Shown piece by piece: positions 201 to 61,835 of a stretch of DNA of 64,000 nt. How positions within the stretch are numbered: the first letter of the stretch is position 1; each line of letters opens with the position of its first letter. The stretch is from Antedon mediterranea (Eukaryota; Animalia; Echinodermata), in the NCBI RefSeq assembly GCF_964355755.1, contig NC_092680.1, positions 5,642,001 through 5,706,000 of the forward strand, in the 5' to 3' direction. A program made the translations under genes and the position numbers. The notes below the pieces were generated by a model, which saw nothing but the letters and a program-made list of their open reading frames with translations, was not told the DNA's origin and searched no databases.

Positions 201-2028
201 CCCTCCAAAATTATACCTAAACTATGTTGTAACAATGTGGAAGAATGCATTGACAAAAGAGTTAGAAGGTCAACCATTGACAGGATGGGGGATAATAGCA
301 TGTGAAATACTAAATGGACTCATAAATCAGAAGGTAAATATTGCTCCCTTTCCTCAAATTTAAGAAATTTTGGATAGGGTTTAATAAACTTTACAACAAT
401 ATTATACTTGTGCTGTGTGTTACAACTGACTTTAATCTTGAATTTTAGGCATTTTGTATTAAAGATACGTAATATCAAATAACATCCAATTCATCACTAA
501 TTCTTCCTATCATTATCGTTTTCTTCGTCTTATTTTTTGGCTAGAATGGAATAATGACTTGAGAAATGCATTATAAATTATTGTTTATAATAATAACTTT
601 AATAATAATAATGTACACATAAAAATATACATACATACATTTTCAGCAGAAAAAAAAAATACAATTATTAAATAATTATGTTTTATGTGCACATTTTAAA
701 TGTTTGTAACATAATATTCTTTTAAAATATTTTTTTCACTTTTTGTGAGTGTTTTTATTTCATTACAGGCTTCTATGTTTGATATGACTGAGTTAGCCCC
801 GGGTGTAATGACTCTAATACGGGCGGACATCGATAGGTTAACTTCTTCTGCGTGTAGAGTGATATCATCCATGTACGAACAGATAGACGCACTTGCGCCG
901 TGGACAGAAGAACTCGTTGACCTTTTTTTAGACAACGATGAGATGTGTACTAGTATAGGAAGTATGTGATCAGATTAACGCTGCATTCACACTCTTTCAC
1001 AAGCGGAAGGCGGCGCCATTTTGTTCAATATTGGAAAGTGATTTTAAGAAATAAACGGTGCCGTCTTCCGTCTCGTAAAATGGAACAAGTTTGAATATAG
1101 CGTTAATAATCTCGATGTACGCCTATTAGTATTTAATCATCAATGAATGATAATGAAAATAGTCCATGTTATTAAACTAAATTTGAATTTAATAGTCTTC
1201 ATTATGACGTCACATTACCTAATTATCATATCAGCTCAAAATTATACAATAAGTTGGAACCATTGCATACAGTACACTGCTATATTATACACAAAGAATT
1301 ATAACGTAAAACAACATTGTGTATCTTTCAAAAGAACTTATTACTTTTGAAAGTATTTTAAAGACACAACTTATTTAGTCTACAACTTATCAATGGAAAT
1401 AGGATTTTTTCTTCTTCGTTGTCAATAAACCATTACTTTTATTATTGCCATCGGTCCCTTAATTTGTAGGAACATCAACATATTAATTAATTAAATTTCA
1501 GTATATCACCAGGCGGTTTAGAATTACTATTCTTTGCCTAATTTGTTTATATATATATATATTATTTTTTTGCACTTTATTTGTAGTGTCATTAAAACCA
1601 CTGTATATTAAATGTCCTGAGAAGATTATGAGTAAAATGGATTTAATCTTTGAAAAGTTACCGGACCTGGATGCGAACAGGAAACGATACCTTTATCTTT
1701 TCTTTGACAATATTTCGAAAACTTCCACTAAGGTAAGGCAAGAACAAACTGATTCATGGTCCAAACTTTGTCTTTACTTTTGAAACATCTCTTCAGTTCA
1801 AATCAAACATGTTTTCAAACAATATGACAATAAGGATTTATTTAATCATTATTACTATTATCAGTATTTATTCCAGCAATGGTGAGCTGAGATTTTATAG
1901 GTCTAAAGAACTGCAATAACATAAATTACGGTAAAAGCAAAACAACCAAATTCTTGCACCTGACAATGTAATCTTCAATTTGAAAATATATCAGTTATAT
2001 GCAGATACACTGATGTGGTTTTTAAGAC

Positions 2029-2061
<33 letters not shown>

Positions 2062-5000
2062 AATAATATTAATAATTCAATTCCAATGTGATGACACACA
2101 CAACATATTTAAAATAATACGGAATTATTACTTTGTTTTCAAAAGTCTTCATTGTTTATTTTCAAAACCCATCCAGTATTCCAATGTGTCAGCCGATTTT
2201 CGGATCTGTATCTACAATTTGTCGAGTATCAAATATATACAATGTATCTTGTCTTTTACATGTGACGTCTATATCATAGGCCATATAAGGCCATATAATA
2301 AGCCTCAACTATACATTTATCTAAACTTCCGTGATGCAGACGCCACATATGAAACTGTATTATGAAATTTGAATAGATGATACTCGACAAAATAATGTCA
2401 TTGGGCAAATACATTACAACATTAGGCATATTGGTCTACAACAAAATAAGTGAGTGCATTATTTACAATCTAATATTTATGCTATAGTCTTGTTCTTTTT
2501 TACAGACATTTGTGCCACATATTGATACCTTAATTGAAGATATCAATGAGTCGGATATTCGACACAAAGTTCTTATGGTGCTGTGTGAAATTGCGGCGAA
2601 ATACCCAGAAAAATTTGTTAATCATATTGAAAGTCTTACTGGGCTATTAGATTCCGATTCAAACACAGTGTACTTCGTAGATAAGATAGTTGCCAGTGTT
2701 GGAACCGTTAATAAGGTACGTGGTGGAAATTCAAATGTAAACGAAAAGTGCCTTTTGATATTGAATTTGCAATTTGTTAAGTTTATTTTACTTTCCTTTT
2801 CCTAATTTTATAGGAATGGGCAATCAAAATCCTAAAGATTTTAATTGATCAGCTTCAGACAGTACAAACGTGCTACCATGTCTACGTTTTAATGGAGTTG
2901 AAAAGAATAGGACATATATTTCCTGAATGTTTAACAGAATATAGAAAAGAAATAGAGGCCATGAAGGGAAGTTCACAGACGGGGATAAAAGACATAGTGA
3001 TTCAACTCATTGATGTTATGGAAGGAAGAACGTAAGTAACTTGAGAAATGGAAAATCAAGCGCATGGAAAAGGGACTTTGGGGTGTAGAGGTTGGAAAAA
3101 AGCTTTATTCTTGGGAAGATACCCACACCCCAATTCGGTCCCTTCCTAAAATCCTGTGTCCGCACCGTTAAATGATGTCCTGGTGTTTTTTTCTCTATAC
3201 GATAGTTTGGAAGGTTTACACGAGAACATTGTAGACCAGCGAGAGGACATCGAGGTATTGGATACACGGGTGACAAACACAGAAAATAACGTTGCAGAAG
3301 TTACAGAGAAAGTTGAGGAACAAGGAAGGGAAATAACGGCTGTTAAAACAGACGTTGCAGAACAAGGACAGAAATTGGAAGAGTTAGAAGAAGTTGTAGA
3401 TGAAACTGTTTTAAAAGTCGACGACATAGATCATAAAGTAAGATTTATTCTTCATATTTAACATTTTAGATGGGACCTACGTGTTATGTGATTATAAGAA
3501 ATTAATAAATAAAAAAATTTAAAAAATGGATGAAAGATTGCAATATTGAAGTAAAATCCTCAACATGAAAAAATCGTCTGACAAATCTGCATTTTCTAGA
3601 CGATTACTAATGCACCAAAATGGTCACGTGATGTTTCAAAACTACTAAATCCAGAAGCTGACTACGATTGGAGATTTTTGGCGATACGTCTCGGCTACTC
3701 GGGGGAGGACATTCGAAACTGGGCGTTGTCACCCGACCCGACTATGGCAATTCTTGCCGAATGGTACACGACCCATAAAAGTAGTGATGCAACATATGCA
3801 ATACTGACGGCGTTAGAAGATATGGGACAAGCAGAGGCTGTAAAGATAGTTGAAGAATCTTTAGAACAAGCAGGTAATCAAGCACACATAAATAAAAATA
3901 CAATTTATTTTTAGTTTTTTTCTCAAGAACGAATAATGTATAATCATTACTGTATAATGAAAAGCAATCGTGTTCCTAATTCAGATTTTTATTGAAATTA
4001 TAGATGCAATGGTTCCAAAATTAGAACCCGGAATATCAGAGAAACCGCCAAAAGTATTCATTAGTTACCAATGGGATCATCAATCTGAGGTGAAGGCTAT
4101 AAGAGATCATCTTGAGATGGCAGGATTTGCTTGCTGGATGGACATTGGTCAGATGGGAGGTGGAGATAATTTATATGCAAAAATCAACGAAGGAATGAGA
4201 GCTGCTAAAGTTGTTCTATGTATGACAACTGACAAGTATTCAAAATCTGAAAACTGTAACAAAGAGGTAAAAAGAAATTTACTGATTAACTAGGCTATAT
4301 CTCTACGACGCTTTCAACAAATTATAGCATTATTTAAATTACTTTAAATACTAAATACTTTATTTTGTTTATCCTCATTACAGGTGAACTTGGCGAATCT
4401 GCTCAACAAGCCAATCATACCGATCCTTATTGAGCGTACAGTCTGGCCTCCGGAAGGACCAATGAGCATGCTTTTTGCTCAGCTTCTTTACATCCAATTT
4501 TTCACGGATAAGCATAACGTCAGAGGAGATAAATTTTGGGTTGATACCAAATTTTGCGAGTTATTGGCGCAAGTTAGTTATTATGCTGCTCCCGATCTTG
4601 ACAAAATTACTGACGGTAAGTGAAGATTCTATTTAAATATTGAATGTCCTACTGTAGCCTTTTCTTCCTTTGTGTATTTTATGTTTCAGAAGTATTCGAA
4701 ACGTATTATAACCACCTAATATCATTGATTGATTTACGAATCACGTTTTTCTTTTTTCAGAATACAAAAGTTGGGTACCAACTGTTGAAGCACCTGAGCA
4801 AGAAATAAAACAAGCTAAGAAAGATGATAAAGGCGGTGAAACCAAAGTGGTAGAATCTGAGCAGGTAATTTTCACTAATTATACAGGAGTATACAAAAGG
4901 TATTTAACGTAAGCTCACAAACATACAAATAGTAATATTAGAAATAATACGCCCTTGTAATCTATATATAAGGGCAAAATTCGGTAAATCACGCGTTATT

Positions 5001-6684
5001 TCTAGAATGTTTACTCGGTAGTATATAAAGTTCGTTCGTACTTTCGGTCCTGATTTTAACCACCTGAAGTAACCCTGTTTACTAATTAAATTGAGTTCGA
5101 TAATTAGTTATTGACAATTAAAACGAATTTAGGTTCAACAATTTGCCCCTAATAGTGGTGTTTTCCGTGGTATAAACTGTCTAATGGATGTCCATCTTGA
5201 AAAATACCCGCACACAATAATACGAGGATGCTTCGCATTTTCTTATCTCCTCCTACGATAATTGGTTTAATGGCTGAAAACCATTTGTTTACAAAACAAA
5301 AGTTTGTTTAAAATGAGTCCTTTCGGAAGTAATTTTCAGGGTGCTAATTTTAGTTGACTACATAAATCATCGTGTCTATTTATTCGTTTCTGTAAACGAC
5401 AATGTATTATACTAGTCCTGCGGTACGTACATTTGAAATCGCCAGTTTTTTTACGCTGAAATTACTGTGTATTCGAGAACGTCCATCTGGGCACGACCTA
5501 GATGGTACCCGAGCGAAGCGATCTAGTTATATTAATTACCCTTTATTGAGATGCATTGATTAATGTATTGCTCTACAAATGGGTTCATTTACAAAACGCT
5601 ATCAAGTCACTAACTTAATAAACGAATAGCTTTTCCTAATTTATTACCAGTTCTGTTCTTTACTTAGCAAGCGGAAATCGAACCAGAAGTCTTCATATCA
5701 TACCAATGGGATCATCAACCACAGATAAAGGTCTTGTACCAACGACTGACCAGTCTTGGTTACTCGTGTTGGTTGGATATCAAACAAATGGGCGGAGGAG
5801 ATCCACTGTATAGTAAAATCGACAAAGGTCTTCGCAAAGCTAAGGTAAGTCAATTCAACTCTATTATTTACATACTACTAACTATTGTAAATAAACAATA
5901 ATATAATAATGTACCTAACCTACCTAAATATTCGAATACTAGCTAAAGGACACAATTAAGTGCCACCGTACTTTTTTTCAATGTATGTACAATGTTAATA
6001 CTATATAAAAACGCGAAGATCGTACTATCAAGGTTAATTATTAGGTTTAATATTTTGTCTATATGATTTTTATAATAGGTTGTAATTTCCTGCGTTACAC
6101 CGAAGTATTCATTGTCCGCCAACTGCCGTCGTGAAGTCAGTCTATCAGATGCTCTCCGTCGACCAATCATTCCAATCCTTCTCCAGCAGATGGCGTGGCC
6201 ACCAGAAGGTCCAATGAGCATGACATTTACGCAACTTCTCTACATTGACTTCACCAAGGAGTCAAGTCAGGAAAGTTTTATCGACGAACAATTTGACGAA
6301 CTTATTATAAAAATTAATGAACATGCGCAGGCTGTAGAAGGTAAAACGTCTGCGAAACTATCTACACCTGATCAGCCGAAACCAACATCGGAAGATTCGA
6401 CACCTGAAGAACCAAAGTTCGAAGATCCGAATCACGAAGAATCAAAATGTGAAGATCCAAAACCTGAAGAACCAAAGTTCGAAGATCCGACACCCCAAGA
6501 ACAACAGTTCGAAGATCCGACACCCCAAGATCCAAAACCCGAAGATCCAAAACCCGAAGAACCAAAACCCGAAGAACCGAAACCCAAGGTACATGCTCCT
6601 AAAGAAATACCGCGGCAAACAACCCCTAATCCACCTGAACCAAATAAACAACACAACAAATCTAAGGCATGTTGCGTTTTATGA
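201..6684 (+). CDS. HEAT/ARM-like - coiled coil - Death - TIR - TIR - EDPKP repeat - CaaX protein, paralog 1 (5' part lies before the window)
   Basis: 12 exons with GT-AG boundaries and consistent phases: 201-333, 769-961, 1587-1732, 2506-2715, 2814-3031, 3206-3437, 3600-3873, 4004-4266, 4384-4615, 4761-4864, 5668-5844, 6079-6684. Death-like motif [19 protein letters not shown]...AILAEW. TIR box1 VFISYQW occurs twice, with WMDI/WLDI and NCNKEV/NCRREV. Ends KSKACCVL-stop. The first 11 exons match paralog 2 in length. Confidence 0.9.
976..1106. mobile_element. Small degenerate MITE-like inverted-repeat element
   Basis: ttaacgctgcattca...tgaatatagcgttaa ends, plus an inner gcggaaggcggcgcc / ggtgccgtcttccgt pair. 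Only the left half survives in paralog 2 (about 16305-16356), so it predates the duplication. Confidence 0.55.
4961..5526 (+). mobile_element. Non-autonomous Helitron (short derivative)
   Basis: Starts TC(TATATATA), ends CTAG, sits between A and T with no TSD. Absent from the matching paralog-2 intron (about 21430). Both ends match the element at 39527-36983. Confidence 0.85.
6386..6590 (+). repeat. Coding 15/30-bp tandem repeat ([10 protein letters not shown]) in paralog 1
   Basis: Repeated gaagatccgaaaccc/gaagaaccaaagttc-like units. Confidence 0.9.
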
Positions 6685-7745: not shown

Positions 7746-8636
7746 TGATTGAAATCAGTGTGTATTGTATTTTAGGTCTTAGAAGACTCCCTTGAAAATA
7801 TTACATGTTATTCTTTTATTATAAAGTTTGATTTTTCCCATCTGTTCTTCTACAGTATCTTGATTAAATTAAAGCTATGCTTACCTTACCTTTATCTCAA
7901 GATTTATTAGTCGATTTTTATAGAAGCTGTTTCATTATATTTTCTTTAATTAGAAGTAAAATAATTAATTACCGTTTCAAACTGAATCTAATTTAATGCA
8001 AATGTACAATAAAATAGTGTTTTTTAAAATTATAATTTACAAAAAGGTATTGAAAAATAATTATATATTATATATTATATAGTAGTTTAATTTATGTGAA
8101 GTAGTTGACTATACATGCTGCATGTTGTATTTTCTCTAATTATTTAGTTTATAACTATGGATTATGGTTATTATGAATTCATGAAATAAAAAATAAAATA
8201 AATTTTAAGTGTGTGAAATATAGTGTTTGTAATTTGATTCTTCAAATAATAATAATTATTATATTCAAATACACTTATTCTGCACGAGTGTGTTATAGCA
8301 ATTATATGGGCTTTATGGTTGAACTTGAAGGACGTACTGAGGTAAGGAAAAATAATTTTAAAAAAATTAATTATATATAATATATATATATATATATATA
8401 GAATTAATGTTCTTTGCCTGATTTGTTTATATATATTTGTATCTCCATTGAGCCAGCCACTGATACCCACAGCATTGTCATTTTTTCAGTTATTTGCCTT
8501 TGGAATTATATATATATATATATATTTATACAGTAGGCAAAGAACATTAATTCTAAACCGCCCGGTGATATACTGAAATTTAATTAATTAATTTGAAACG
8601 ATAAAGATGAGGAAATCTGTGAGAATGAGAAAAAGT

Positions 8637-8708
8637 CGCCCCAACCGAGACTCGAACTCGGACCGTCTGCTTGATATGCAGTTGCCCTAACCATTAGACC
8701 ACTGGGGC
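8637..8708 (-). tRNA. tRNA-like cloverleaf, anticodon ATC; probably a tRNA-derived repeat head or pseudo-tRNA
   Basis: GCCCCAG-TG-GTCTAATGGTTAGGGC-A-ACTGC-ATATCAA-GCAGA-CGGT-CCGAG-TTCGAGT-CTCGG-TTGGGGC-G, 72 nt. A and B boxes intact, followed by a T5 run. Non-canonical A32 and a 27:43 mismatch. Confidence 0.55.
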
Positions 8709-8998
8709 TTTCATGGTATTGTTCAAACTCGATTGGATAGCGACTCTTTAACATTCTCGGCGTGGTACGGCGGAACAGCACTAGTCCTCAGTTGTACACA
8801 CGCGCACCAGAGATCAAATTGATACGCCCTCATCTTACAGTATTTTTATTCACGAGGCGGGATCTCCGAAGAGATACTTTTATATATAAACACAGTAGGC
8901 AAAGAACATTAATTCTAAACCGCCCGGTGATATACTGAAATTTAATTAATTAATTTGAAACGATAAAGATGAGGAAATCTGTGAGAATGAAAAAAAGT

Positions 8999-9070
8999 CG
9001 TCCCAACCGAGACTCGAACTCGGACCGTCTGCTTGATATGCAGTTGCCCTAACCATTAGACCACTGGGGC
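8999..9070 (-). tRNA. Second tRNA-like cloverleaf (ATC) with one acceptor-stem mismatch
   Basis: Same sequence 362 bp away. 3' end is TTGGGAC-G, followed by a T7 run. Confidence 0.45.
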
Positions 9071-9367
9071 TTTCATGGTATTGTTCAAACTCGATTGGAT
9101 AGCGACTCCTTAACATTCTCGGCGTGGTACGGCGGAACAGCACTAGTCCTCAGTTGTACACACGCGCACCAGAGATCAAATTGATACGCCCTCATCTTTC
9201 AGTATTTTTATTCACGAGGCGGGATCTCCGAAGAGATACTTTTATATATAAACACAGTAGGCAAAGAACATTAATTCTTATTAATTTAAGTATTTATATA
9301 AACACATCGGGCAAAGAACATTAATTCTAAACCGCCCGGTGATATACTGAAATTTAATTAATTAATT

Positions 9368-9420
<53 letters not shown>

Positions 9421-10229
9421 CCAGTAAATAAAATAATAAGATGACACTGAGAGCGATTTCTATCTATTATAATAATCTACCTTACATCCTCACCATGGCA
9501 ATATTATTATTTGTAGCGTAATCAATAGGTGTATTTTAGGCCTATTGTTGATGATGCGGGTCAGTGATTCATAGCTAGCAGGATGTGCGCATTGAGTCTT
9601 TCAGTAAGGTGGTATAACCATGGACAATATTTAGCAGAAACAAGCAGTATGTGTAAGGTTGATACTGTGCTATAGCTAAGGTAAATATGATAATTAGCGC
9701 TTTTAAGAACGTGAGATAGGCTATTCTAGTAATACTGAACAAGCAATTAATTATCTGGGTACCAGTTCTGATTTCATGTCATACAATATGCATATCAGGC
9801 ATGCCTGTGGATGTTGTCGGAAAAAGACTAAGTTTTTTTTTACAGATTATTACTATAGAGTATGAATACTGTAATTGAAGGATTTTTTTAACACATTGAA
9901 GCCTAAAACTCAAGTGATAATAATCCATGCTTTTTTTTAATATAACTAATATTGAAGTAACTAAAGATACGAAATACTGTATTAGTAATACTTTCATACA
10001 ATAGGACTACAAAGCATAATAAGGGAAGCACCTCTTTACCGACCGACAACTAAGCCCTTGCGTAGATTATAACTCGAGTGTGCCTTATGCATTGTTTCCG
10101 ATACGATGGGATATTATTATGTGTTTAGGAATGTTGAAATGTTGGGTTACTTATGACAAAAATAAAGTCATTGCAGTTACTATAAAAGAAGTGAACCGCG
10201 TTATTTTAAAATTTTTAGCGAAAATAACC

Positions 10230-13200
10230 ATGAAACGGGCAGAGGTCGAAGCGGTTGTAGTTGAAATCTCAGAATCAATTGAGGATTTTAAGTACATGCC
10301 AAAACTGATTAAAGCAGTGACTGAATTTGAAGAAGAGGAGGATGTCAGAAGGCGGAACATGCGAGTATTAACAAATGTCATTGACAAAGTACTTTCTGCC
10401 GCTAAAAAAAGGTTTGTCATACGACATTTTATTTAAACTGTTTTAGTTATTTGAATAACTAAACAGGCCTAGTAGCATGTAGGCCTAGTTACTAAGTTAA
10501 GCTAAGTAACTGACTTCAAGGAATGGTATATATAAGAATATTTAAGAGCGTATTTATTTACTCACACAGAATCCTCCTAATTTGTTATAAGTTATTGGTG
10601 GACAAAACTTAAAACATTATAATTTACTTCATTACTTTACTAAAGCGTGTGGTTCCCACTACTAGCGACGCAACGCAAGGACGTAACGCAACGCAAGTGA
10701 ATTGACCAATCACAAGCGATGGCTTATTCGCTTGTGACTGCTAACTGTCTATAACTTCGCTTGTCATTGGTTAAAACGCTTGCGTTGCGTTTACGTCCTT
10801 GCGTTACGTTCTAGTGGGAACCAAGCTTTAAGGGCTTAACAGCAAATAGTTCAGTACGGTACATAAGAATAGACGGATACATTATTTATAGACTTACTAC
10901 CATATTTAAATGAAATAATGACTAATTTAACATATTTTTCTTTTAAATTGTTGAAATATGTATTTAAATTTGTTTGGATACAGCAAGGGTAAAGAGTCTA
11001 AAGCATTCGCCGGACTTGCAGTTGCCATGGCAGAGACGAAGATGTATACGTACTGTAGCAGACTGGAAACTATATTTAAAGACCGGAACATCGTCAATTG
11101 GAAAGTAAAGCTATTTCTTTATTTTAAAGGTTCTCCCCCAAAGTCTAGATTAAATTAGGATAAATTACTTATCTTAGAAATTCATGTTTTAATTTGTTGG
11201 CAATGGAGAGAGACAGAGTAAGGAATGGTTGCCGCATTCTCACTCTTTCTCCTATTGGTCGTTATGTGGACGCGCTGCCCGGGCTTCATCCAGTAAAAAT
11301 CGGAATTCCCCGCGCTATGTGCAGCCATTGATAGGGCACTTTATATCATGTGATATACACAGTCGTTCAATCGATGACCGGAATCTCTTTATGTGTTTTA
11401 TTTTGTTTACCAATTTTAATTGGTCAAAAACTTAAGACCACTTAAAAGTAGTCGTAAGGTTTTTTTTATGAACGAATACTCTCAATAAAATTCCTAATTA
11501 GTATTATTATATTATCTATTATTCTTCAGTTTTTCTTCAGTTCTCAGGCCAATATATTTTTAATTTTTTATCTTGTTTATTAAGGACCACTCAACAGAAG
11601 CTATACAAATAATAGAGTCATTCATGGAACCAACAATGACTGACCATGAACATGCTAAAGAAAAAAGATATTTTAACATAGAAATGGTCGCAGCATTTGT
11701 GTAAGTAGGCCCTACAGTACGCTTAAAGATCTATTTTCCCCCTGAACATTTTTTTTAATATGCCATTTTAATATCACATAATAGTTATTTACATTGAACA
11801 AAAATTGAACTGAAAATAAATTATTTATCTTTATTTTTAAAAAAAATAGTCAAATTTACAAAAGCCCGTTCGGGCCACTAGTTAATTATATTTTAAGAGC
11901 TGTTACCAGGTGGCCGCCAGATAACTATCTAGCGGACGCCACTTAATTATCTGGCGGAAGCCACTTAATTATCTGTCTGTATTGCATCAACAAGTATGTT
12001 TGCTTTGACATACACTATGACGGCAAATACAATGTTGACGCAAATATTGGAACTTAGATTTAACGAAAAAAATATTGGCATGGTAAAAATGCAATTATTC
12101 GAGATATATCCTATTTTTTATAATTTACACTTTATATTAGGGCTCGGAAATATTTGGGTAATTTATCCTATTTTATTTATAATTTGGGCTTGGTTATGCT
12201 TAGGTAGGACTTGACCTGGGCTATGGGCTTTTGTCACAAGAGAATGTACAGTGTCTGGCGGTCAGATGACGCAATACAGACAGATAATTAATGGCGTCCA
12301 GAAGATAATTAAGTGGCGGCCGCACGATAATTAACTGGCGGCCGCCAGGTAACAGCTCTTAAAATACAATCAACTAGTGGCATGAACGGGCTTCCGTACA
12401 AATTGGCAGCCGGTTGAATTTAACCGTTTGTCAATTTTGAAAACAATTTTTTCGGGGTTTTTTTCTATGGAAGGGATTAACATTGGTAAAACTATAAAAT
12501 ACCTTATTCAAAGTCTAATATTAATTTTTTTTTTCCTAATTTTTTTTAGACAACAATACATCTTTAATAATAAATAACATTATACAAATAAATGGTGTTT
12601 TTCTGTGTATCCCTCTATTGACAGTATTAACACCTTTCTACCTAATTAAAAATAATTATACAGTATTTACTGTCTTTTATTCATTTATTTGTACATTTTA
12701 TTTTTCTAATATTTGACAGCACCGAACATTGGTACATTCTTAAAAAATATGTTTTAAAGTGGATGCAATAACATTACAGAATCCTTCCATCATTTTTAAC
12801 ATAGTATAGGCATATTAGGCCTAACTTAATTCATAATTAAAATCGAATAAACATAAGAGAGGTTTCGCAATCTTACGAATACGATAACGAAAACGGATAC
12901 GTCACACATTTTGTGAAACTTTTGAGCTGATCCCCATTTCATATTCGTAAAGCGTATTTGTGTTGACGAATATCACCAGTCATATTCGTAACTACAAAAC
13001 GAGTAGGCCTATAGTTTTTGATCTATTTTGCACATTTTGCATTTGAATCAGGAATGATTCATGATTATAATATAATTATACTTTTATTGAAAGTAATTTA
13101 CTAAAGTAATTTACTAAAATGCCAGGTAAATTTTGATAAATAGCAATTTTTAAAGTCTTCACTCGCTTTGATGTTACGCTCGGCCTAGGCAGCCAAGCAC

Positions 13201-16200
13201 CAAGCAACACGTACTGCGCTTCCCTCACATTTACCGCAGTCATATTTTGGGAGGCGCCCTCAATATTTCGTTGCAATGCGAAACTTTTTTACTGGCTTAC
13301 GAAAAACGAATACGTGTGCGTGACGTATCCGTTTTCGTTATCGTATTCGTAAGATTGCGAAACCTCCCTATTAACATAGAAAAAGGATCAATAACTATAA
13401 AAGCATATTAGGCCTACATCGTAATACGGTCTGCTCGATGGAGTTTGATCGACAATACAAAATAAACGCTTCAATTTGAAACACAAAGCTAATTTAAACG
13501 TATTATATTGTTTAAATAATAATATACAATTTAATCATTACTGTATAGTAACTTTTGTACAGGTGATATTCGTCTTTAACTGTTTTTCTTTATTTTATAG
13601 ACGAGATAAGGTGGCTAAGAAAATTGAAATCAAGCTTGTACAACTGTTGATAAATTGTCTTGAGAAATTCAACTATATTAATCTTAAGGTTGCTTTAGGA
13701 TTGACATATCGCTGGGATTTTAATGTTGAAGTAAGCTATTTATAGTTTAATCTCGTATCTAAGAAAGTTTAGATATTACTAAAAGGCTAGATTGATTAAA
13801 GATGTAGGCATATTGTCCCTTGAAACACAAAAAAAATGAAGGTCAAAATATTCTAAATTTAAATTGGCCATATCAAAGTAATATTAAAGTTATTCACTTT
13901 AAGTCGAAAATTTACGTATTTAACAGGTAAATTAATTTGATTACATTTCGTCTGGAAAATCGTCGCGAGCGAAAGTAAACAAAGATTTCAGAACACGAGT
14001 ATGCATTATGTGTGATGCTAATTAGGATAGTTTACAACTCGTCACGGTTGAAAAGGTGTTTTCACATAGATCGCGAGAAGTTTTATGATTATGCATACAG
14101 AGTAGCCAAATTAGCGTGTTGCATTATGAGATATGTTTTGATCGAAACTTTGACTGGAAGTCAAAGTTATTTTTTTAACAAAAAAGTATGTATTTCAGTT
14201 AAATGATTTTTTCTTCGACAAATTTTTGGTGATAGTTAATAACTATTATGATACTTCAAAATTACCCACATTTTTCGAAATATTTTTTTAAAATTTTTTT
14301 GGAATTAGTCAAAGGAACAATACATCTTTAACATTTGTAAACACGACAGTAATAGTAATCAATCGATGATAAGGTAAATTTATTCATAGCATGTGTGCTA
14401 TACAGACTAGCAAGCAAAGCTTTACGGCTAGTTACACTTTCATTAGAAAGGTATATACTACGGAAGTTTTTCTATAATATCTGTACATTTTTAACTGGCT
14501 GTAATTGGCACATTAATCGAATCTATTATCAAACAAAAACTACAATACTTTGGACATATTGCCAGACGGGATGGAGATAGTATGGAGAAAATGATTATGT
14601 TTGGGAAAGTTGAGGGGAAACGAAAAAGAGGAAAACAGAGACCCAGATGGATTGATGGTATAAGTGGTGCTGCAAACCGACCAATAATCAGTTGCTACAA
14701 TGAAGCTCAAGATCGGCAAGAATGGAGACACCTCATCAGAATGGTCACGAGTACTCAGATATGAGTAGAACGACGAGAGAGTAATTGAATATTATATAAA
14801 TAGTTCTAAGGCATTAGGAACTTTAAACCGCCAATTAATTTACAGAATTGTTTTTATATTCTTATTTGATGGAGATCCTGAGATGATCTGATACCGGTGT
14901 TTTTTTTTTGTGTCTGTCTTTGTATTTAAACTTATTTTATGCAATTGATTTTGTAACTATGGACGTCCGTTTCCGAAATAAATACAAAATGAATGAAATG
15001 AAATAAACGGAAGATTATGTTCGATCATGTAATTTCAAATAGGGCATTTGCTAACGAAATTAACTACTCTGTAGAAAGCTAATGCTTGTGTTTTCAAATG
15101 GGTTATCTAATCGATAATTAATTGTTACTTAAAGGACAGGACTATTATACTCAAGTTAATAAAGACTATTGATGAGTGGATGACAACATTTGATGATATA
15201 ATGGCAAAAGACAATCGTCCCCTCGAACTAAGGCTTGTGGAAGAGTCGTTGGAAATTGCATTTGAATCCAACTGGTAAGAAACCAAGCTTTTGAACGATA
15301 AGCCATTGTTTTAGTTTTTCACCTTAGACCTATTAATCTTCCTTATTTCAGTACCTAACTAATTACATTGTAAATTTACTGTGTTTACGTTCAGTTATTT
15401 AACAGAAAAACGGTTTTAAAAATGAGAGTTTAAAAAAATGAAGTAAATATCTTGGACTGGTGTTACCGGTGTTTTTAAACGAAAGCGGAAAAAACGAATG
15501 ATTTGAGGTGTGTAGGCCATGTTAATGTCATTTTCTCCCATTTTTTAGCCCTCCAAAATTATACCTAAACGATGTTATAAGAATGTGGAAGAATGCATTG
15601 ACAAAAGAGTTAGAAGGTCAACCATTGACAGGATGGGGAATAATAGCATCTACAATAATAAATAAACTCATCATTCCAAAGGTAAATAATATTGCTTTTA
15701 ACTTTACAAAGTACTCCTATTTCTCATTTTGGACAGAGTTTAACAAAACATTACAACAATATATATTTATGTTGTGTGTTATAACTTTAATCTTGAATTT
15801 TAGGCATTTTGTATTAAAGATACGTTATATCAAATAACGTCCCATTCATCACTAATTCTTCCTATTATCATCGTTTTCTTTGTCTTTGGCCTGAATAGAA
15901 TAAAAATACTAAAATTTATTATTATTATACATTATTGTTTATAACTTTAATATTAATGTACATAGAAATATGTATACATACCAGCTGAAATTAATACGCT
16001 GACATTAATTAAATATTTGTTTGGTTCACATTTGAAATGTTTGTAACAGGACATTCTTTTCAAATATTTTTTTTGGAGCGTTTTTATTTCATTTACAGGC
16101 TTCTATGTTTGATATGACTGAGTTCGCCCCGGGTGTAATGACTCTAATACGGGCGGACATCAAGAAGTTAACTTCTTCTGCGTCTAGTGTGATATCATCC

Positions 16201-19200
16201 ATGTACGAAAAGGTGGACACATTTGTGCCGTGGACAGAAGAACTCGTTGACCTTTTTCTAGACGACGATGAGATGTATACTAGTATAGGAAGTATGTGAT
16301 CAGATTAACGCTGCATTCACACTCTTTCGCAAACGGAAGGCGGCGCCATTTTGTTCTATTATTATTATTTAATCACCAATGAATAATAATGATATGGTCA
16401 ATGTTATTAAACTAAATTTGAATTGAATAGTCTTAATGATGACGTCATATTGTCAAAATATCATATCAGCTCAAAATATATAATAAGTTGGAACTATTGC
16501 ATACATTTATAGTACAAATTGTTGCCGGGGTATATTATACAAAGAATTATAACGTAGGCCTTGTTACAACCGTTAATGTAGAAAACGCCAGCTAATGTCG
16601 AAACAACCGTTAATGTAGAACAACCCACCGCTTATGTAGTAAAACCTCCAGCTTATGTAGAAACACCAACAGCTTATGTAGAAAATAAAAATCAACACCA
16701 GCTAATGTAGAAACAGTCAACAGCTTATGTAGTAACGAAAATTGCCTCCCAGCTTATGTAGTTACTATCGCCAGCTAATGTAGAAAATGTTATACATTTT
16801 ACAAATGCATCGATCTTTACTTAGCTATCAGTCTTTCCACCTTTCGTAAGCAACCAACTTTCTAAAACGACCCACATATCGTAACCAACCATCTCTGTTA
16901 AGAGACCCTTTCACATAATCGACCACCTCTCGTAAGGGATCACCTCCTCTCATAAGGGACCACTTCTCATAATCGACCACCTCTCTCGTAAGCGACCACC
17001 TCTCGTAAATGACCACCTCTTTTAAGGGACCATGACCTCTTTCTCTCTTTTAAAGAACCACCTCTCTTAACGTCCCCACCTCTCGTAAGTGACGACCTCT
17101 TTTAAAGGACCACCACCTCTATTAAGGGACCGCTTCTTATTGACCACTTCCGAGAGGTGGTCGATTATGATAAATGGTCCCTTAAAAGAGACGGTGGTCG
17201 TTCAATAGAGGTGGTCACTTACCAAAGGTCGTTGTGAGAAGCGGTTCTTTAATAGAGAGAAAGAGGTTGTGGTCCCTTAAAAGAGGTGGTCACTTACGAG
17301 AGGTGTGGTCGTTAAGAGAGGTGGTCGCCTACGAGAGGTGGTCGATTATGAAAAGCGGTTCCTTATGAGAGGAAGTGATCACTTACGAGAGGTGGTCTAT
17401 TATAAGCAGTGGTCCCTTAATAATAGAAACGGTGGACGTTCAATAGAGGTGGTCACTTACCAGAGATCGTTGTGACGGGAGATAGTCGATTATGAGAAGC
17501 GGTCCTTTAATAGAGAGAAAGAGATCGTGGTCCCTTAAAAGAGGTGGTCATTTACGAGAGGTGTGGTCGTTAAGAGAGGTGGTCGCTTACGAGAGGTGGA
17601 AAGACTGATAGCTAAGTAAAGATCGATGCTTGCACATGAATTATAGACATTTTTGTAAAATATATAACATTTTCTACATTAGCTGGCGATAGTAACTACA
17701 TAAGCTGGGAGGCAATTTTCGTTACTACATAAGCTGTTGGTGTTTCTACATAAGCTGGAGATTTTACTACATAAGCGGTGGATTGTTATACATTAACGGT
17801 TGTTTCGACATTAGCTGGCGTTTTCTACATTAGCGGTTGTAACAGGCCTAAATCAAATATTTGTGTTGAAAAGAAAATCTTTCAAAAAGAACTTATAATT
17901 ATGTTGAAAATTATGTCCATTATACAAACATTATTTAACTTCTAAATATAGTCTACAACTTACCAATGGAAACTAACTTGAAAATGTTTTCTTTTTCTTC
18001 GTCAATAAACCCTTACTATTATTATGGCCATCAATTATTAAATTTGTAGGAATATTAAACAATTATTATTATTTATTTTTAGGTTCATTAAAACCACTGT
18101 ATGTTAAATGTCCTGAGAAGATTATGAGTAAAATGGATTTAATCTTAGAAAGGTTACCTGACATGGATGCGAAAAGGAAACACTATATTTATGTTTTATT
18201 TGACAATGTTTCGAAAACTTCCACTAAGGTAAGGCAAGAACAAACTGATTAAATATTCCTATAGATAAACAACTGGTCCGAACTGGTCCGAACGTGGTCA
18301 TAATTTTGAAGACATGCACTATCTTCAGTTCAAATCAAAACACTAGGCACAATATAATAAGCGGCAGGTCCAAGAGCTTGTTTAGAGAGCGCCCATTGCC
18401 ACCTCTCTACAAACTTTAAAGTACACTAAATCCTTTGTTAGCCTAAACCCTTAATAGTAATTCAGAGCTGTACCGTTGATCGAAAATTCACTGCGGTCAT
18501 CCTCAAATCCAAGATGGCGTTCAAAATTGCCGGCATTTCTAACACAAGCCTAAGGTTTAAAAACTGTACATGTTATCAAACAATATGAAAATAAGGATCT
18601 ATTTAATTATTATGATTATCATTTCACCATAGTTAAAGGTGACCCAGAAAGGGTGAGCTTATTTTAAAGGACCCTCAACAAGACAAGACGACACACAATA
18701 ACAAACAATATAAACAAAATATAAGCAAATTAAAATGTATCTAATCTTCCATGATACAGACTCCCCATGTGACACTGTATCACGGAATTTGAATGTGATA
18801 CTAAAAAAATAATGTCTTTGTGGAAATACATCACAAAACGACGCATATTGGTCTTTAAAAAAATAAGTAAGTGCATTACGCCAATTTACTATGTATTATT
18901 ATAATATTTATGCTATAGTTGTTTTATTACAGACATTAGTACCACATATTGATACTATCATTGAAGATATCAATGAGTCGGATATTCGATACCAAGTTCT
19001 CATGGTGCTTGGTGAAATTGCTGCGAAATACCCAGAAAAATTTGTTAATCATGTTGAAAGTATTAATGGGTTATTAGATTCCGAACCAAACACAGTGTAC
19101 TACGTAGATAAGATAGTTGCCAGTGTTGGAACCGTTAATAAGGTACGTGGTGGAAATTCAAATGTAAACGAAAAGTGCCTTAATATTGAATTGACAATTT

Positions 19201-22200
19201 GTTAAATATATTTTACTTTCTTTGTTCAAATTTTATAGGAATGGGCAATCAAAATCATAAAGATTTTAGTTGATCAGCTTCAGACAATACAAACGTCCTA
19301 CCAGGGTATCGTTTTAATGGAAATGAAAAGAATAGGCCATAAATATCCTCAATGTTTAACACCATACAGAAAGGAGATAGAGGCCATGAAGGGAAGTGCA
19401 CAGATGGGAGTACGAGACGTGGTGATTTCACTCATCGATTTTATGGAAGGAAGAAGGTAAGTCACTTGAGATGGACGTACAAATTCTGTTTTTCTCACGA
19501 AAATCAAGCGCATGGGAAAGGGAAACCTTTTGGGTTGTTAAGGTTATCAAAAAAAGCTTTATTCTTGGGAAGATATCAACACCTCAATTCGGTCCCTTTC
19601 CAACATCCTGTGTCCGCACCGGTAAATGATGTGCTGGTGTTTTTTCTCCTCAATACGACAGTTTAGAAGGTTTACACGAGAACATTGTAGACCAGCGAGA
19701 GGACATCGAGGTATTGGATACGCGAGTGACAAACACAGAAAATAACGTTGCAGAAGTTACAGAGAAAGTTGAGGAACAAGGAAGGGAAATAACGGCGGTT
19801 AAAACAGACGTCGCAGAACAAGGACAACGATTGGAAGAGTTGGAAGAAGTTGTTGATGAAACCGTTGTAAAAGTCGACGAGATAGATCATAAGGTAAGAT
19901 TTTATTCCTTATATTTAACATTTAAGATGGGATTAACAATCCTTTTCATGTGATTCACACAAATTATAGACTTACAGTACGTGTGATGTGATATGATAAG
20001 ATAAGAAATGGATGAAAAGATTGCAATATTTAAGTAAAAACCACATATCTATGACAACATTTCTGACAAAATCTATTTTCTAGACGATTACTAATGCACC
20101 AAAATGGTCACGTGATGTTTCAAAACTACTAAATCCAGAAGCTGACTACGATTGGAGATTTTTGGCGATACGTCTCGGCTACTCGGGGGAGGACATTCGG
20201 AACTGGGCGTTGTCACCGGACCCGACTATGGCAATTCTTGCCGAATGGTACACGACCCATAAGAGTAGTGATGCAACATATGCAATACTGACGGCGTTAC
20301 AAGATATGGGACAAACAGAGGCTGCAAAGATAGTTGAAGAATCTTTAGAACAAGCAGGTAATCAAGAACACATAAATACACATTTTCTCATTGACAATTA
20401 ATATATAAACATTACTGTATAATGAAAGCCAATCATGTTTCTAATTCAGATTTTCATTAAAATTATAGATGCAATGGTTCCAAAATTAGGACCCGAAATA
20501 TCAGAGAAACCGCCTAAAGTATTCATTAGTTACCAATGGGATCATCAACCTGAAGTGAAGGCTATAAGAGATCATCTTGAGATGGCAGGGTTTGCTTGCT
20601 GGATGGACATTGGTCAGATGGGAGGAGGAGATAATTTATATGCAAAGATCAACGAAGGAATGAGAGCTGCTAAAGTTTTTCTGTGTATGACAACTGAGAA
20701 GTATTCGAAATCAGAAAACTGCAACAAAGAGGTAAAAAGAAATTTACTGATTAACTAGGCTATATCTCTACGACGCTTTCAACAAATTATAGAAATCTTA
20801 CTCACATGGTAACTTTAAATACTAAATACTTTATTATGTTTATCTTCATTACAGGTGAACTTGGCGAATCTGCTCAACAAGCCAATCATACCGATCCTTA
20901 TTGAGCGTACAGCCTGGCCTCCGGAAGGACCAATGAGCATGCTTTTTGCTCAGCTTCTTTACATCCAATTTTTCACGGATAAGCATTACGTCAGAGGAGA
21001 TAAATTTTGGGTTGATACCAAATTTGCAGAGTTATTGGCGCAAGTTAGTTATTATGCTGCTCCCGATCCAGAAAAAATTACTGACGGTAAGTGAAGATTC
21101 TATTTAAATATTGAATGTCCTACTGTAGCCTTTTCTTCCTTTGGGTATTTTATGTTTCAGAAGTATTCAAAACGTATTATAACCACCTAATATCATTGAT
21201 TGATTTAGGAATCACGTTTTTCTTTTTCAGAATACAAAAGTTGGGTACCAACTGTTGAAGCACCTGAGCAAGAAATAAAACAAGCTAAGAAAGATGATAA
21301 AGCCGGTGAAACCAAAGTGGTAGAATCTGAGCAGGTAATTTTCACTAATTATACAGGAGTATATAAAGAGTATTTGACGTAAACTCACTAACTAAATAGT
21401 AAATATTAGAAATAATAAGCCCTTGTAATCATATTAATTCAATAATTTATTGCTGATTGTAGAGATGGATTGATGTGTGCTCTACAAATGGGCTTATTTA
21501 CAAAATGTTATCAAGTCACTAACTTAATCAACCATAGCTTTTCCTAATTTATTACCAGTTTTGTTCTTTACTTAGAAAGCGGAAATCGAACCAGAAGTCT
21601 TCATATCATACCAATGGGATCATCAACCACAGATAAAGGTCTTGTACCAACGACTGACCAGTCTTGGTTACTCGTGTTGGTTGGATATCAAACAAATGGG
21701 CGGTGGAGATCCATTATATAGTAAAATTGACAAAGGTCTTCGCAAAGCTAAGGTAAGTCAATTCTACTCTATTATTTACATACTACTATTGTAAATAAAC
21801 AATAATATAATAATGTTCCTAACCTACCTAAATATTCGAATACTAGCTAGTGTTCTAAAGGACACAATTTTAGGTGCCACCGTACTTGTTTTATGTATGT
21901 ACAATTTTAATACTATTTAAACACGCGAAGATTGTACTACCAACGGTACTCAATGCACAGTTGAGGTTAATTATTAGGTTTAATATTTTTGTCTATGAAT
22001 TGTATTATAGGTTGTTATTTCCTGCGTTACACCGAAGTATTCATTGTCAGCCAACTGCCGTCGTGAAGTCAGTCTATCAGATGCTCTCCGTCGACCAATC
22101 ATTCCGGTCCTTCTCCAGCAGATGGCGTGGCCACCAGAAGGTCCAATGAGCATGACATTTACACAACTTCTCTACATTGACTTTACCAAGGAGTCAAGTC

Positions 22201-22898
22201 AGGAAAGCTTTACCGACGAAAAATTTGACGAACTTATTACAAAAATTAATGAACATGCACAGCCTGTAGAAGGTGATACGTTTGCAAAACCATCTACACC
22301 TGAACGAGTTTCTGATCAGCTGAAACCCACATCCGAAGATTCGAAACCCGAAGAACCAGAGTTTGAAGATACGAACCCCGAAGAACCAAAGTTCGAAGAT
22401 CCGAACCCCCAAGAATCAAAGTTCGAAGATCCGAAACCCGAAGATCCAAAACCCGAAGAACCAAGACTCGAAGATCCGAAACCCAAAGAACCAAAGTTCG
22501 AAGATCCGAAACCTGAAGATCCAAAACCCGAAGAACCAATGCTCGAAGATCCGACACCTAAAGAACCAAAGTTCGTAGATCCGAAACCCCAAGAACCAAA
22601 GTTCGAAGATCCGAAACCCGAAGAACAAAGGTTCGAAGATCCGAAATCTGAAGAATCAAAGTTCGAAGATCCGAAATCTGATGAGTCAAAGACCAAGGAT
22701 CCGAAATCCGAGGAAGCAAAGACCGAAGAACCGAAACCAGAGGACGCAAAGTCTGAAGATCCGAAATCCGAAGAATCAAAGTCCGAAGATCCAAAACCCG
22801 AGGTACATGCTCCTAAAGAAACACCGCGGCAAACAACCCCTAATCCGCCTGAACCAAATAAGCATCACAGAAAATCTAAGGCATGTTGCGTTTTATGA
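10230..22898 (+). CDS. HEAT/ARM-like - coiled coil - Death - TIR - TIR - EDPKP repeat - CaaX protein, paralog 2 (apparently complete, about 1252 aa)
   Basis: 17 coding exons: 10230-10411, 10984-11104, 11585-11700, 13601-13730, 15135-15274, 15549-15681, 16099-16291, 18083-18228, 18933-19142, 19239-19456, 19662-19893, 20084-20357, 20469-20731, 20855-21086, 21231-21334, 21576-21752, 22011-22898. Total 3759 nt, in frame. ATG in ACCATGA context just after an acceptor at 10218. The first five exons have no in-window paralog to confirm them, so they are less certain. Confidence 0.88.
10642..10829. mobile_element. MITE (PIF/Harbinger-like)
   Basis: TIR aaagc..tggttcccacta / tagtgggaaccaagcttt. Subterminal acgcaaggacgtaa / ttacgtccttgcgt. 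Confidence 0.75.
11727..12563. mobile_element. Kolobok-like non-autonomous element carrying a nested MITE
   Basis: ttaa|agatctattttccc ... acaatacatct|ttaa termini. Related to the element at 13800-14327. Confidence 0.55.
11859..12396. mobile_element. MITE with long TIRs, TA-flanked
   Basis: aagcccgttc..ccactagtt-att-tattttaagagctgttacc is mirrored by ggtaacagctcttaaaatacaatcaactagtgg..gaacgggctt. Subterminal taattatctggcgg repeats. Confidence 0.8.
12857..13368. mobile_element. MITE, about 510 bp, about 47-bp TIR (Harbinger-like)
   Basis: gagaggtttcgcaatcttacgaatacgataacgaaaacggatacgtcac and its reverse complement at the other end. A near-identical copy in opposite orientation is at 33898-34397. 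Confidence 0.9.
13800..14327. mobile_element. Kolobok-like non-autonomous element
   Basis: ttaa|agatgta..tattgtccc ... ggaacaatacatct|ttaa. Confidence 0.55.
14535..14782 (+). mobile_element. RTE-clade LINE 3' fragment
   Basis: Translates [42 protein letters not shown]...AQDRQEWR, the typical RTE ORF C-terminus. Confidence 0.85.
16557..17848. mobile_element. Foldback-type DNA element, about 1.3 kb, imperfect palindrome with modular subrepeats and TA TSD
   Basis: ta|ggccttgttacaaccg...cggttgtaacaggcc|ta. Outer cagc(t/a)atgtag repeats and inner gaccacctct repeats are mirrored on both arms. The empty site ataacgTAaaac is at 1307-1308 in paralog 1. Confidence 0.9.
22335..22803 (+). repeat. Expanded coding 15/30-bp tandem repeat ([10 protein letters not shown]) in paralog 2
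   Basis: Same units. The last-exon ORF is 284 aa here versus 190 aa in paralog 1. Confidence 0.9.

Positions 22899-26598: not shown

Positions 26599-51034
<24,436 letters not shown>

Positions 51035-56115: not shown

Positions 56116-61835
<5,720 letters not shown>

What the first reader, a model, noticed from the sequence alone, without database searches (positions are those of the whole stretch)
10230..22898. Candidate undescribed immune receptor: membrane-anchored HEAT/ARM-like - coiled coil - Death - TIR - TIR - repeat stalk - CaaX protein, tandemly duplicated
Seen: a phase-consistent 17-exon gene with about 530 aa of amphipathic helical sequence, a heptad coiled coil, a Death-like domain, two TIR domains, an acidic/Pro repeat and terminal CCVL; no signal peptide or TM segment is evident. 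Established: MyD88 is Death-TIR, SARM1 is ARM-SAM-SAM-TIR, and TLR/IL-1R are TM-TIR; none has this order, twin TIRs or a CaaX box. Inference: a cytosolic, lipid-anchored sensor-effector in one chain, SARM1-like in logic, with the helical domain as sensor/autoinhibitor, coiled coil plus Death as oligomeriser, and the TIR pair as effector. I recall similar Death-TIR-TIR tails in uncharacterised invertebrate proteins, some Roco-type, but cannot verify this here.
Basis: partly seen in the sequence, partly recalled or inferred. Interest (0 to 1): 0.9.

Follow-up and report, generated by a model that had tools for sequence, protein, structure and literature searches.

The report
Membrane-anchored twin-TIR invertebrate sensor-enzyme
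This feather-star gene belongs to a widespread invertebrate family so far filed as "MyD88-like", but its conserved enzyme-type TIR domains, conserved lipid-anchor signal and fast-changing front half suggest it is likely a membrane-tethered sensor that would cut NAD+ when triggered, rather than a signalling adaptor.

Summary
Observation confirmed. A phase-consistent 17-exon gene (10230-22898, 1252 aa) encodes ARM/HEAT solenoid, coiled coil, Death, TIR, TIR, disordered repeat and CCVL. A tandem paralog lies at 201-6684. It is not undescribed: relatives occur in echinoderms, hemichordates, amphioxus, molluscs, annelids, a nemertean and rotifers. They are deposited as sea-urchin 'MyD88-like L1/L2' and listed as Armadillo-containing MyD88-like genes in Aplysia. 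That label fits poorly: the MyD88 TIR motifs tested are missing. Both TIRs keep the glutamate that aligns with SARM1's catalytic one (102/102 and 101/102), and their closest listed solved relatives are mostly NADase TIRs. The CaaX box is a family trait (105/122). A sister Neuralized-Roc-COR-Death-TIR family also keeps CaaX (34/35) and Glu (35/35), so Death-TIR-CaaX looks like a reusable membrane effector behind different front ends. Between the two tandem copies the solenoid evolves about five times faster than the core (dN/dS 0.83 vs 0.17). Best reading (0.55): a prenylated, oligomerisation-activated TIR NADase sensor, SARM1-like in logic. Enzyme activity, ligand, immune role and splicing of this copy's first nine introns are unshown.

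The parts
10230..19456 (+). Exons 1-10 (10230-10411, 10984-11104, 11585-11700, 13601-13730, 15135-15274, 15549-15681, 16099-16291, 18083-18228, 18933-19142, 19239-19456): ARM/HEAT alpha-solenoid, ~aa 1-530, fast-evolving putative sensor/regulatory part
   Evidence: dN/dS 0.83 over the part shared with the upstream copy
19662..19893 (+). Exon 11: heptad coiled coil (aa ~531-607), Val/Ile at a and Gln/Thr/Val/Leu at d, trimer-like
   Evidence: profile hits include gp26, Lpp, sigma-1 and GCN4 variants, whose trimeric state is recalled
20084..20357 (+). Exon 12: Death domain, closest solved relative p75NTR
   Evidence: Pfam PF00531 E=1.4e-11
20469..21086 (+). Exons 13-14 (20469-20731, 20855-21086): TIR1; catalytic-position Glu786 at 20729-20731
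21231..21334 (+). Exon 15: flexible inter-TIR linker
   Evidence: low pLDDT in the paralog model, low conservation
21576..22260 (+). Exon 16 (21576-21752) and the start of exon 17 (from 22011): TIR2; catalytic-position Glu976 at 22065-22067
22334..22801 (+). Acidic/Pro 30-nt tandem repeat (15.6 copies): disordered tether, copy-specific length
22863..22898 (+). Basic patch followed by the CaaX box CCVL (Cys1249 at 22884-22886) and stop
   Evidence: Cys at -4 in 105 of 122 family rows
201..6684 (+). Upstream tandem paralog, exons 6-17 (the rest lies 5' of the window); its translation is the exact C-terminal part of P0004
16555..17850 (.). Foldback-type inverted-repeat insertion in intron 7, absent from the paralog's intron 7 (1791 vs 625 nt); not part of the coding unit

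Best explanation
The gene encodes a solenoid-coiled coil-Death-TIR-TIR-CaaX protein that is likely prenylated onto the inner face of a membrane and likely works as a one-chain sensor-enzyme, whose paired TIR domains would cleave NAD+ once clustered. SHOWN: domain order, no TM segment, family-wide CaaX with an upstream basic patch, near-invariant active-site-type residues in both TIRs, a fast-evolving solenoid on a conserved core, tandem duplication, and reuse of the Death-TIR-CaaX end in a Roco-type sister family. INFERRED: geranylgeranylation (X = Leu in 80 of 105), with possible palmitoylation of the second Cys of CCVL (recalled rule for CCaX ends). The coiled coil likely pre-assembles trimers. 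A cue bound or sensed by the solenoid (pathogen product, modified host protein or membrane damage; unknown) would release the Death domains to cluster on the membrane and line up the TIRs. The output would be NAD+ depletion or a cADPR-type signal leading to defence or cell death.
For: The Glu is present in TIR1 in 102 of 102 and in TIR2 in 101 of 102 aligned family members, with invariant or near-invariant F-x-S-Y-Q-W and W-x-D-x-x-Q-M-G-G-G-D motifs. It aligns with the Glu of SARM1's alphaC helix. Closest solved TIRs by sequence: PdTIR, SARM1, Cat1, AbTIR; by fold: SPARTA TIR-APAZ, SARM1, Hydra TRR-2, RPS4. PADLOC hits are prokaryotic defence TIR-like models. CaaX in 105 of 122 rows against a tail Cys background of 0.3%; mean 3.1 basic residues in the 10 upstream positions; 3 of the 17 rows without CaaX (Haliotis) carry an N-terminal Cys cluster instead. 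dN/dS between the two window copies: solenoid 0.83, coiled coil-to-TIR2 0.17, Fisher p=7e-6. Sister Roco family: CaaX 34 of 35, Glu motif 35 of 35; its TIR groups with TIR1 at SH-aLRT 99 in a quick tree. Non-TLR animal TIRs with this Glu can make cADPR (bioRxiv 10.64898/2026.04.20.719644).
Against: A Glu is not proof of activity: only 12 of 61 Glu-bearing animal TIRs were active in that preprint, and TLR2, IL-1R9 and IL-1R10 have it yet were inactive. dN/dS 0.83 is not above 1 (p=0.50 against neutrality), so relaxed constraint explains it as well as ligand-driven selection. The monomer models give no confident inter-domain packing (pTM 0.54 and 0.38), so autoinhibition is unsupported. There are no expression or challenge data. 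In divergent paralogs the Glu is lost in 6 of 27 hand-picked TIR1 and 2 of 27 TIR2 domains. The Foldseek matches to full-length SARM1 have TM 0.10-0.14 and rmsd above 30 A: shared parts, not a shared assembly.
Confidence: 0.55

Rival explanations
1. A non-enzymatic adaptor or brake in Toll-like receptor signalling. The CaaX tail would place it at the membrane, as the lipid-binding tails of TIRAP or fly MyD88 do, and the Death and TIR domains would bind or sequester TLR/MyD88/IRAK components.
For: Death directly followed by TIR; existing annotation as MyD88-like; arthropod MyD88s carry a C-terminal localisation domain (PMC7075850); many Glu-bearing TIRs were inactive in tests.
Against: MyD88 motifs are missing: Box 1 0 of 102, betaE CDYT 0 of 102; an RDxxPG string occurs somewhere in only 2 of 102 proteins, while the family's own BB-loop motif is in 102 of 102. 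The Death domain is closest to p75NTR (E=3e-08) and hits MyD88 only at E=0.012. No MyD88/MAL TIR appears among the listed fold matches. Recalled, not seen: Chou et al. 2023 found that only the canonical sea-urchin MyD88 activated NF-kB.
Confidence: 0.2
2. An enzymatic TIR protein with a non-immune job, such as a SARM1-like degeneration or wound/membrane-stress programme, or trafficking-linked signalling through its adaptin-like solenoid.
For: All enzyme and membrane evidence applies equally. SARM1 itself acts in axon degeneration. The solenoid's best sequence hits are adaptin HEAT repeats, and the Death domain resembles the neurotrophin receptor p75NTR.
Against: Repeated lineage-specific duplication (four Antedon proteins on one contig, several per genome in Haliotis, Dimorphilus and Branchiostoma) and a fast-diverging front half are more typical of immune receptors than of mostly single-copy SARM1 (inference).
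Confidence: 0.17
3. The family is real but this particular copy is a decaying duplicate, or its exons 1-3 are not spliced as modelled.
For: RefSeq models this copy without exons 1-3 and with intron-6 sequence. Exon 3 is 16 codons shorter than in the paralog. The spliced contigs seen differ from this copy and match paralogs.
Against: All 17 exons are open, in phase and bounded by AG/GT. Exon 1 is 88% identical to the paralog's protein. The core shows purifying selection since the duplication (dN/dS 0.17), though a pairwise value cannot assign this to one copy.
Confidence: 0.08

Closest known systems
'MyD88-like protein L1/L2' of Strongylocentrotus purpuratus (UZG77129.1, UZG77126.1) and the Armadillo-containing MyD88-like genes of Aplysia (LOC101850562, LOC101855561, LOC101858605; PMC9334734)
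   Same: Same family: full architecture; L1 is 70% identical over the coiled coil-to-TIR2 region and ends in CaaX.
   Different: Nothing in kind. The Aplysia passages seen mention the ARM fold but not twin TIRs, the catalytic Glu or CaaX. The sea-urchin paper could not be read.
SARM1/TIR-1 (ARM-SAM-SAM-TIR NADase)
   Same: Helical solenoid, then oligomerisation module, then Glu-bearing TIR, in one chain; SARM1 ranks at or near the top in sequence and fold searches.
   Different: Coiled coil plus Death instead of SAMs; two TIRs; C-terminal CaaX; lacks SARM1's BB-loop and EE-loop motifs (0 of 102); multi-copy.
MyD88
   Same: Death domain directly followed by a TIR.
   Different: The MyD88 TIR motifs tested are absent; a 530-800-aa solenoid and a coiled coil precede the Death domain; second TIR; CaaX; enzyme-type Glu.
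Neuralized-Roc-COR-Death-TIR proteins ('neuralized PATS1' of Saccoglossus; an Antedon member is P0314)
   Same: Homologous Death-TIR end with Glu and CaaX; its TIR groups with TIR1.
   Different: Neuralized-Roc-COR front end instead of solenoid plus coiled coil; one TIR; mostly CxxCaaX (28 of 35).
Plant TNL receptors and prokaryotic SPARTA/Thoeris/Cat1 TIR enzymes
   Same: Variable sensor coupled to TIRs activated by oligomerisation (established); similar TIR fold.
   Different: No STAND ATPase, Argonaute or CARF domain; lipid anchor; Death domain.

Membership tests
MyD88 (TIR group 23 of PMC7075850) | Death domain at the N-terminus followed by one C-terminal TIR | tested here: not met
   Death starts at ~aa 607, behind the solenoid and coiled coil; two TIRs follow
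MyD88 (TIR group 23 of PMC7075850) | Box 1 FDAFICY, Box 2 RDVLPG, betaE CDYT | tested here: not met
   Motifs; found in 0, 2 (anywhere in the protein) and 0 of 102 rows
MyD88 (TIR group 23 of PMC7075850) | Recruits IRAK and activates NF-kB | not testable with these tools
   Needs cell assays; Chou et al. 2023 not held
SARM1 (TIR group 24) | ARM and/or SAM repeats before a C-terminal TIR | tested here: inconclusive
   An ARM/HEAT solenoid is present; no SAM hit on any exon; Death, coiled coil and a second TIR are extra
SARM1 (TIR group 24) | BB loop E(R/K)LEAG and EE loop H(D/E)YQ | tested here: not met
   Motifs; 0 of 102 for each
Catalytic (NADase) TIR domains | Glutamate in helix alphaC at the catalytic position | tested here: met
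   Aligns with the SARM1 Glu; 102/102 and 101/102
Catalytic (NADase) TIR domains | Glu-dependent NAD+ cleavage | not testable with these tools
   Needs a biochemical assay; whether a member is in Table S4 of the 2026 preprint could not be seen
CaaX-prenylated proteins | Terminal Cys-a-a-X, conserved, with an upstream basic or second-Cys signal | tested here: met
   CCVL after a basic patch; 105 of 122 rows, aliphatic a2 in 104 of 105
CaaX-prenylated proteins | Actual prenylation and membrane localisation | not testable with these tools
   Needs labelling and imaging
Roco proteins | Roc-COR tandem | tested here: not met
   No Roc or COR hit on any exon or in the precomputed domains of P0001/P0004; present only in the sister family
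TLR / IL-1R | Ectodomain, TM segment, TIR | tested here: not met
   Max KD19 1.24; no LRR or Ig hit
ARM-containing 'MyD88-like' invertebrate family (sea-urchin L1/L2, three Aplysia genes) | Homology over solenoid, Death and TIR regions | tested here: met
ecTIR-DC families (invertebrate conserved TIR proteins) | Assignment to one of the numbered families | not tested
   Defining paper not among the 3 papers found; only citing passages were seen, so the family may already carry such a number

The most novel reading that the evidence does not exclude
Invertebrate bilaterians carry an overlooked class of prenylated intracellular immune receptors, built from a portable Death-TIR-CaaX NADase cassette fused to interchangeable sensors (a diversifying ARM/HEAT solenoid plus trimeric coiled coil here, Neuralized-Roc-COR in the sister family). 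They detect infection or damage at membranes and answer with NAD+ cleavage or cADPR-type signals: an animal counterpart of plant TIR-NLRs that has been mis-filed as MyD88.
Probability: 0.35. Interest if true: 0.85.

Novelty: new variant of a known kind. Interest (0 to 1): 0.62.

Why it matters
A recent preprint shows that many animal TIRs can be enzymes but leaves open which full-length proteins use this and how they are switched on. This family offers a concrete, ancient, multi-copy candidate with a testable design (sensor, oligomeriser, two active-site-type TIRs, lipid anchor). It is present in farmed and model invertebrates (oysters, abalone, sea cucumber, sea urchin, amphioxus, Aplysia, Biomphalaria). 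It would also mean that reported 'MyD88 expansions' in invertebrates partly count a different kind of protein.

Tried and rejected
No whole genome was held, so the places of the other two Antedon paralogs (P0002, P0005) are unknown; only two copies map to the window. No RNA holder was listed as such. Laying contigs on 9440-16500 gave no usable exon joints because high-copy intronic repeats filled the tables; this is no evidence either way. The intron 7 junction was not covered by either laid stretch. Complex prediction of the coiled coil-Death trimer was not available: no verdict. The ESM Atlas did not answer. The wide VIA-align search was busy. The careful tree did not finish; only the quick tree is used. 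Four short 'TIR-tail-CaaX only' proteins nest within TIR2 and are unnamed gene calls, mostly on long contigs; I treat them as likely last-exon fragments, not a separate family. No vertebrate, tunicate, arthropod, nematode or cnidarian name appears in the listed rows, but the lists were cut (120 of 252, 120 of 158, 150 mostly unnamed of 16,325), so absence is not shown. Positive selection on the solenoid was not shown. No paper describing the architecture was found in searches; subscription journals are mostly not covered, and only included 'CAAX' as a term. Earlier scan notes: none.
Full report
Gene model. Seventeen AG/GT-bounded exons between 10230 and 22898 splice in phase to 1252 aa with one terminal stop. 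The window matches Antedon mediterranea RefSeq proteins: the Death exon is 100% identical to P0001, and exons 6-17 of the upstream copy (201-6684) translate to the exact C-terminal part of P0004. RefSeq's model of the focal copy (P0001) starts at exon 4 and keeps intron-6 sequence. In run X1 (RNA by guess), contigs join exons 10-11, 11-12, 12-13, 13-14, 14-15, 15-16 and 16-17, i.e. 7 of the 9 introns in the stretch laid; X2 and X4 show none of these joints. These contigs differ from this copy and come from paralogs, but they link the last solenoid exon piecewise to the coiled coil, Death and both TIRs. A 6907-nt contig encoding a complete 1185-aa relative (P0017) is most simply a spliced transcript (inference). 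Splicing of introns 1-9 of this copy was not seen.

Anatomy. Pfam finds Death on exon 12 and TIR_2 on exons 13, 16 and 17. AlphaFold2 of paralog P0004 with a 102-row alignment (mean pLDDT 79.8, pTM 0.54) gives a continuous helical solenoid to residue ~545, a long helix, a Death domain, two TIR folds and a disordered tail. The solenoid matches armadillo repeats (Z 21.3, rmsd 3.5 A, 250 residues) and, by profile, HEAT proteins and adaptins. The coiled coil has Val/Ile at a and Gln/Thr/Val/Leu at d, and its profile hits include gp26, Lpp and sigma-1. That these are trimers, and that this pattern favours trimers, is recalled; the trimer itself could not be modelled. The Death domain is closest to p75NTR. 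There is no TM segment. The tail repeat has 15.6 units here and 6.5 in the paralog and is unconserved across the family: a tether, not a domain.

Family. A search with the coiled coil-to-TIR2 region found 252 proteins; the 120 listed come from echinoderms, hemichordates, amphioxus, molluscs, annelids and a nemertean; rotifer and leech members appear. Several genomes hold multiple copies; four Antedon proteins lie on one contig. The family is named in databases and print: S. purpuratus 'MyD88-like protein L1/L2', and three Aplysia 'MyD88-like' genes with an extra Armadillo-type fold (PMC9334734, passages seen), which are my P0064, P0065 and P0144. The same passage lists a ROCO-bearing 'MyD88-like' gene. 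Chou et al. 2023 (citation seen) probably covers L1/L2 but was not held; my memory that only canonical MyD88 activated NF-kB there is recall.

Enzyme-type TIRs. In 102 aligned members (20 of 122 rows left out as short, partial or fused models, among them P0001) the alphaC Glu is present in 102 TIR1 and 101 TIR2 domains, and it aligns with SARM1's Glu. The nearest solved TIRs are PdTIR, SARM1, Cat1 and AbTIR by sequence and SPARTA TIR-APAZ, SARM1, Hydra TRR-2 and RPS4 by fold. The MyD88 and SARM1 signature motifs of PMC7075850 (sections 49 and 35) are absent, so this is neither family. Against over-reading: in bioRxiv 10.64898/2026.04.20.719644 (parts 1-3 of 6 and passages read; supplements not visible) 12 of 61 Glu-bearing animal TIRs were active, among them echinoderm, mollusc, rotifer and lancelet ones, and TLR2 was not. 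Whether any was of this family is unknown. Among 27 hand-picked family proteins that include divergent paralogs, the Glu is lost in 6 TIR1 and 2 TIR2 domains.

Membrane anchor. A Cys stands at -4 in 105 of 122 rows (tail background 0.3%), the last residue is Leu in 80, and on average 3.1 basic residues precede it. Of the 17 exceptions, several look truncated, five pulmonate-snail rows end in basic runs, and three Haliotis rows carry an N-terminal Cys cluster instead, which suggests that membrane attachment is kept by other means (inference).

Sensor-effector signature. Between the two window copies dS is similar (0.13 vs 0.12), but dN/dS is 0.83 in the solenoid (exons 6-10) and 0.17 from coiled coil to TIR2 (Fisher p=7e-6). 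The four crinoid proteins compared are 50-74% identical in the solenoid and 88-99% in Death and TIRs. This fits a diversifying sensor on a fixed effector, but also relaxed constraint.

A portable cassette. The profile search of 1.84 billion representatives returned, below the family, proteins with Neuralized-Roc-COR-Death-TIR. Among the 35 Roc-bearing rows listed, 34 end in CaaX and 35 keep the Glu motif. In a quick tree of 76 TIRs (43 hand-picked proteins; no SARM1 or MyD88 outgroup; midpoint root) their TIR groups with TIR1 (SH-aLRT 99), apart from TIR2.

Verdict. The feature is real and well built, and belongs to a named but apparently uncharacterised and likely mislabelled family. It works most likely as a prenylated, clustering-activated TIR NADase sensor (0.55); rivals are a TLR adaptor/brake (0.2), a non-immune enzyme (0.17) and a decaying copy (0.08). 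I found no description of the CaaX anchor, twin enzyme-type TIRs or shared cassette in nine literature searches, but two key subscription papers could not be read. Other papers consulted: PMC4346834, PMC2575513, PMC6321704, PMC5549309, PMC5877582, PMC13673367 and PMC10210618 (passages only) and bioRxiv 10.64898/2026.09.21.753143 (abstract only); none of what I saw describes this architecture.

Noticed in passing
P0001 / window 10230-16291: The RefSeq model XP_071965604.1 appears wrong at its 5' end: it omits exons 1-3 and reads through part of intron 6.
   Followed up: yes
window 16555-17850: A ~1.3-kb foldback element with internal 17-21-nt subrepeats in intron 7, absent from the paralog's intron.
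   Followed up: partly
window 8519-9278: A 362-nt tandem duplication between the two gene copies; each unit holds a tRNA-like sequence called Asp(ATC) by ARAGORN (8637-8708, 8999-9070, minus strand), likely a tRNA-derived SINE.
   Followed up: partly
window 10650-10830, 11790-11990, 12856-13370, 13790-14300: Very high-copy short elements in introns 1, 3 and 4, several with inverted ends (MITE-like); 12856-13370 recurs inverted at 33896-34398.
   Followed up: no
window 14495-14761 (+) and 47696-48319 (+): LINE-like fragments: the second hits zf-RVT (E=1.3e-07); the first resembles a LINE C-terminus from recall only and has no Pfam hit.
   Followed up: partly
window 39582-39914 and 49068-49358 (-): A WW-domain exon (E=3.8e-13) and an upstream exon that looks like the start of a C2 domain (no Pfam hit); possibly a NEDD4-family ligase gene.
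   Followed up: partly
window 58102-59283 (-): P66_CC plus GATA zinc finger: a GATAD2/p66-like gene.
   Followed up: partly
P0114, P0117, P0124 (Haliotis): Paralogs that lack the CaaX box but carry an N-terminal Cys cluster, a possible switch of lipid anchor.
   Followed up: partly
P0214 (unnamed Logan contig): A 2023-aa protein with seven TIR domains, all with the Glu, followed by WD40 repeats.
   Followed up: no
P0156, P0158, P0161, P0162, P0168, P0172: Divergent paralogs in which TIR1 has lost the Glu; TIR2 keeps it in all but P0172, so these may be enzyme/pseudo-enzyme pairs.
   Followed up: partly
P0162 (Ptychodera): A family member joined to LSM14-FDF-YjeF_N domains at its N-terminus; probably a fused gene model.
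   Followed up: no
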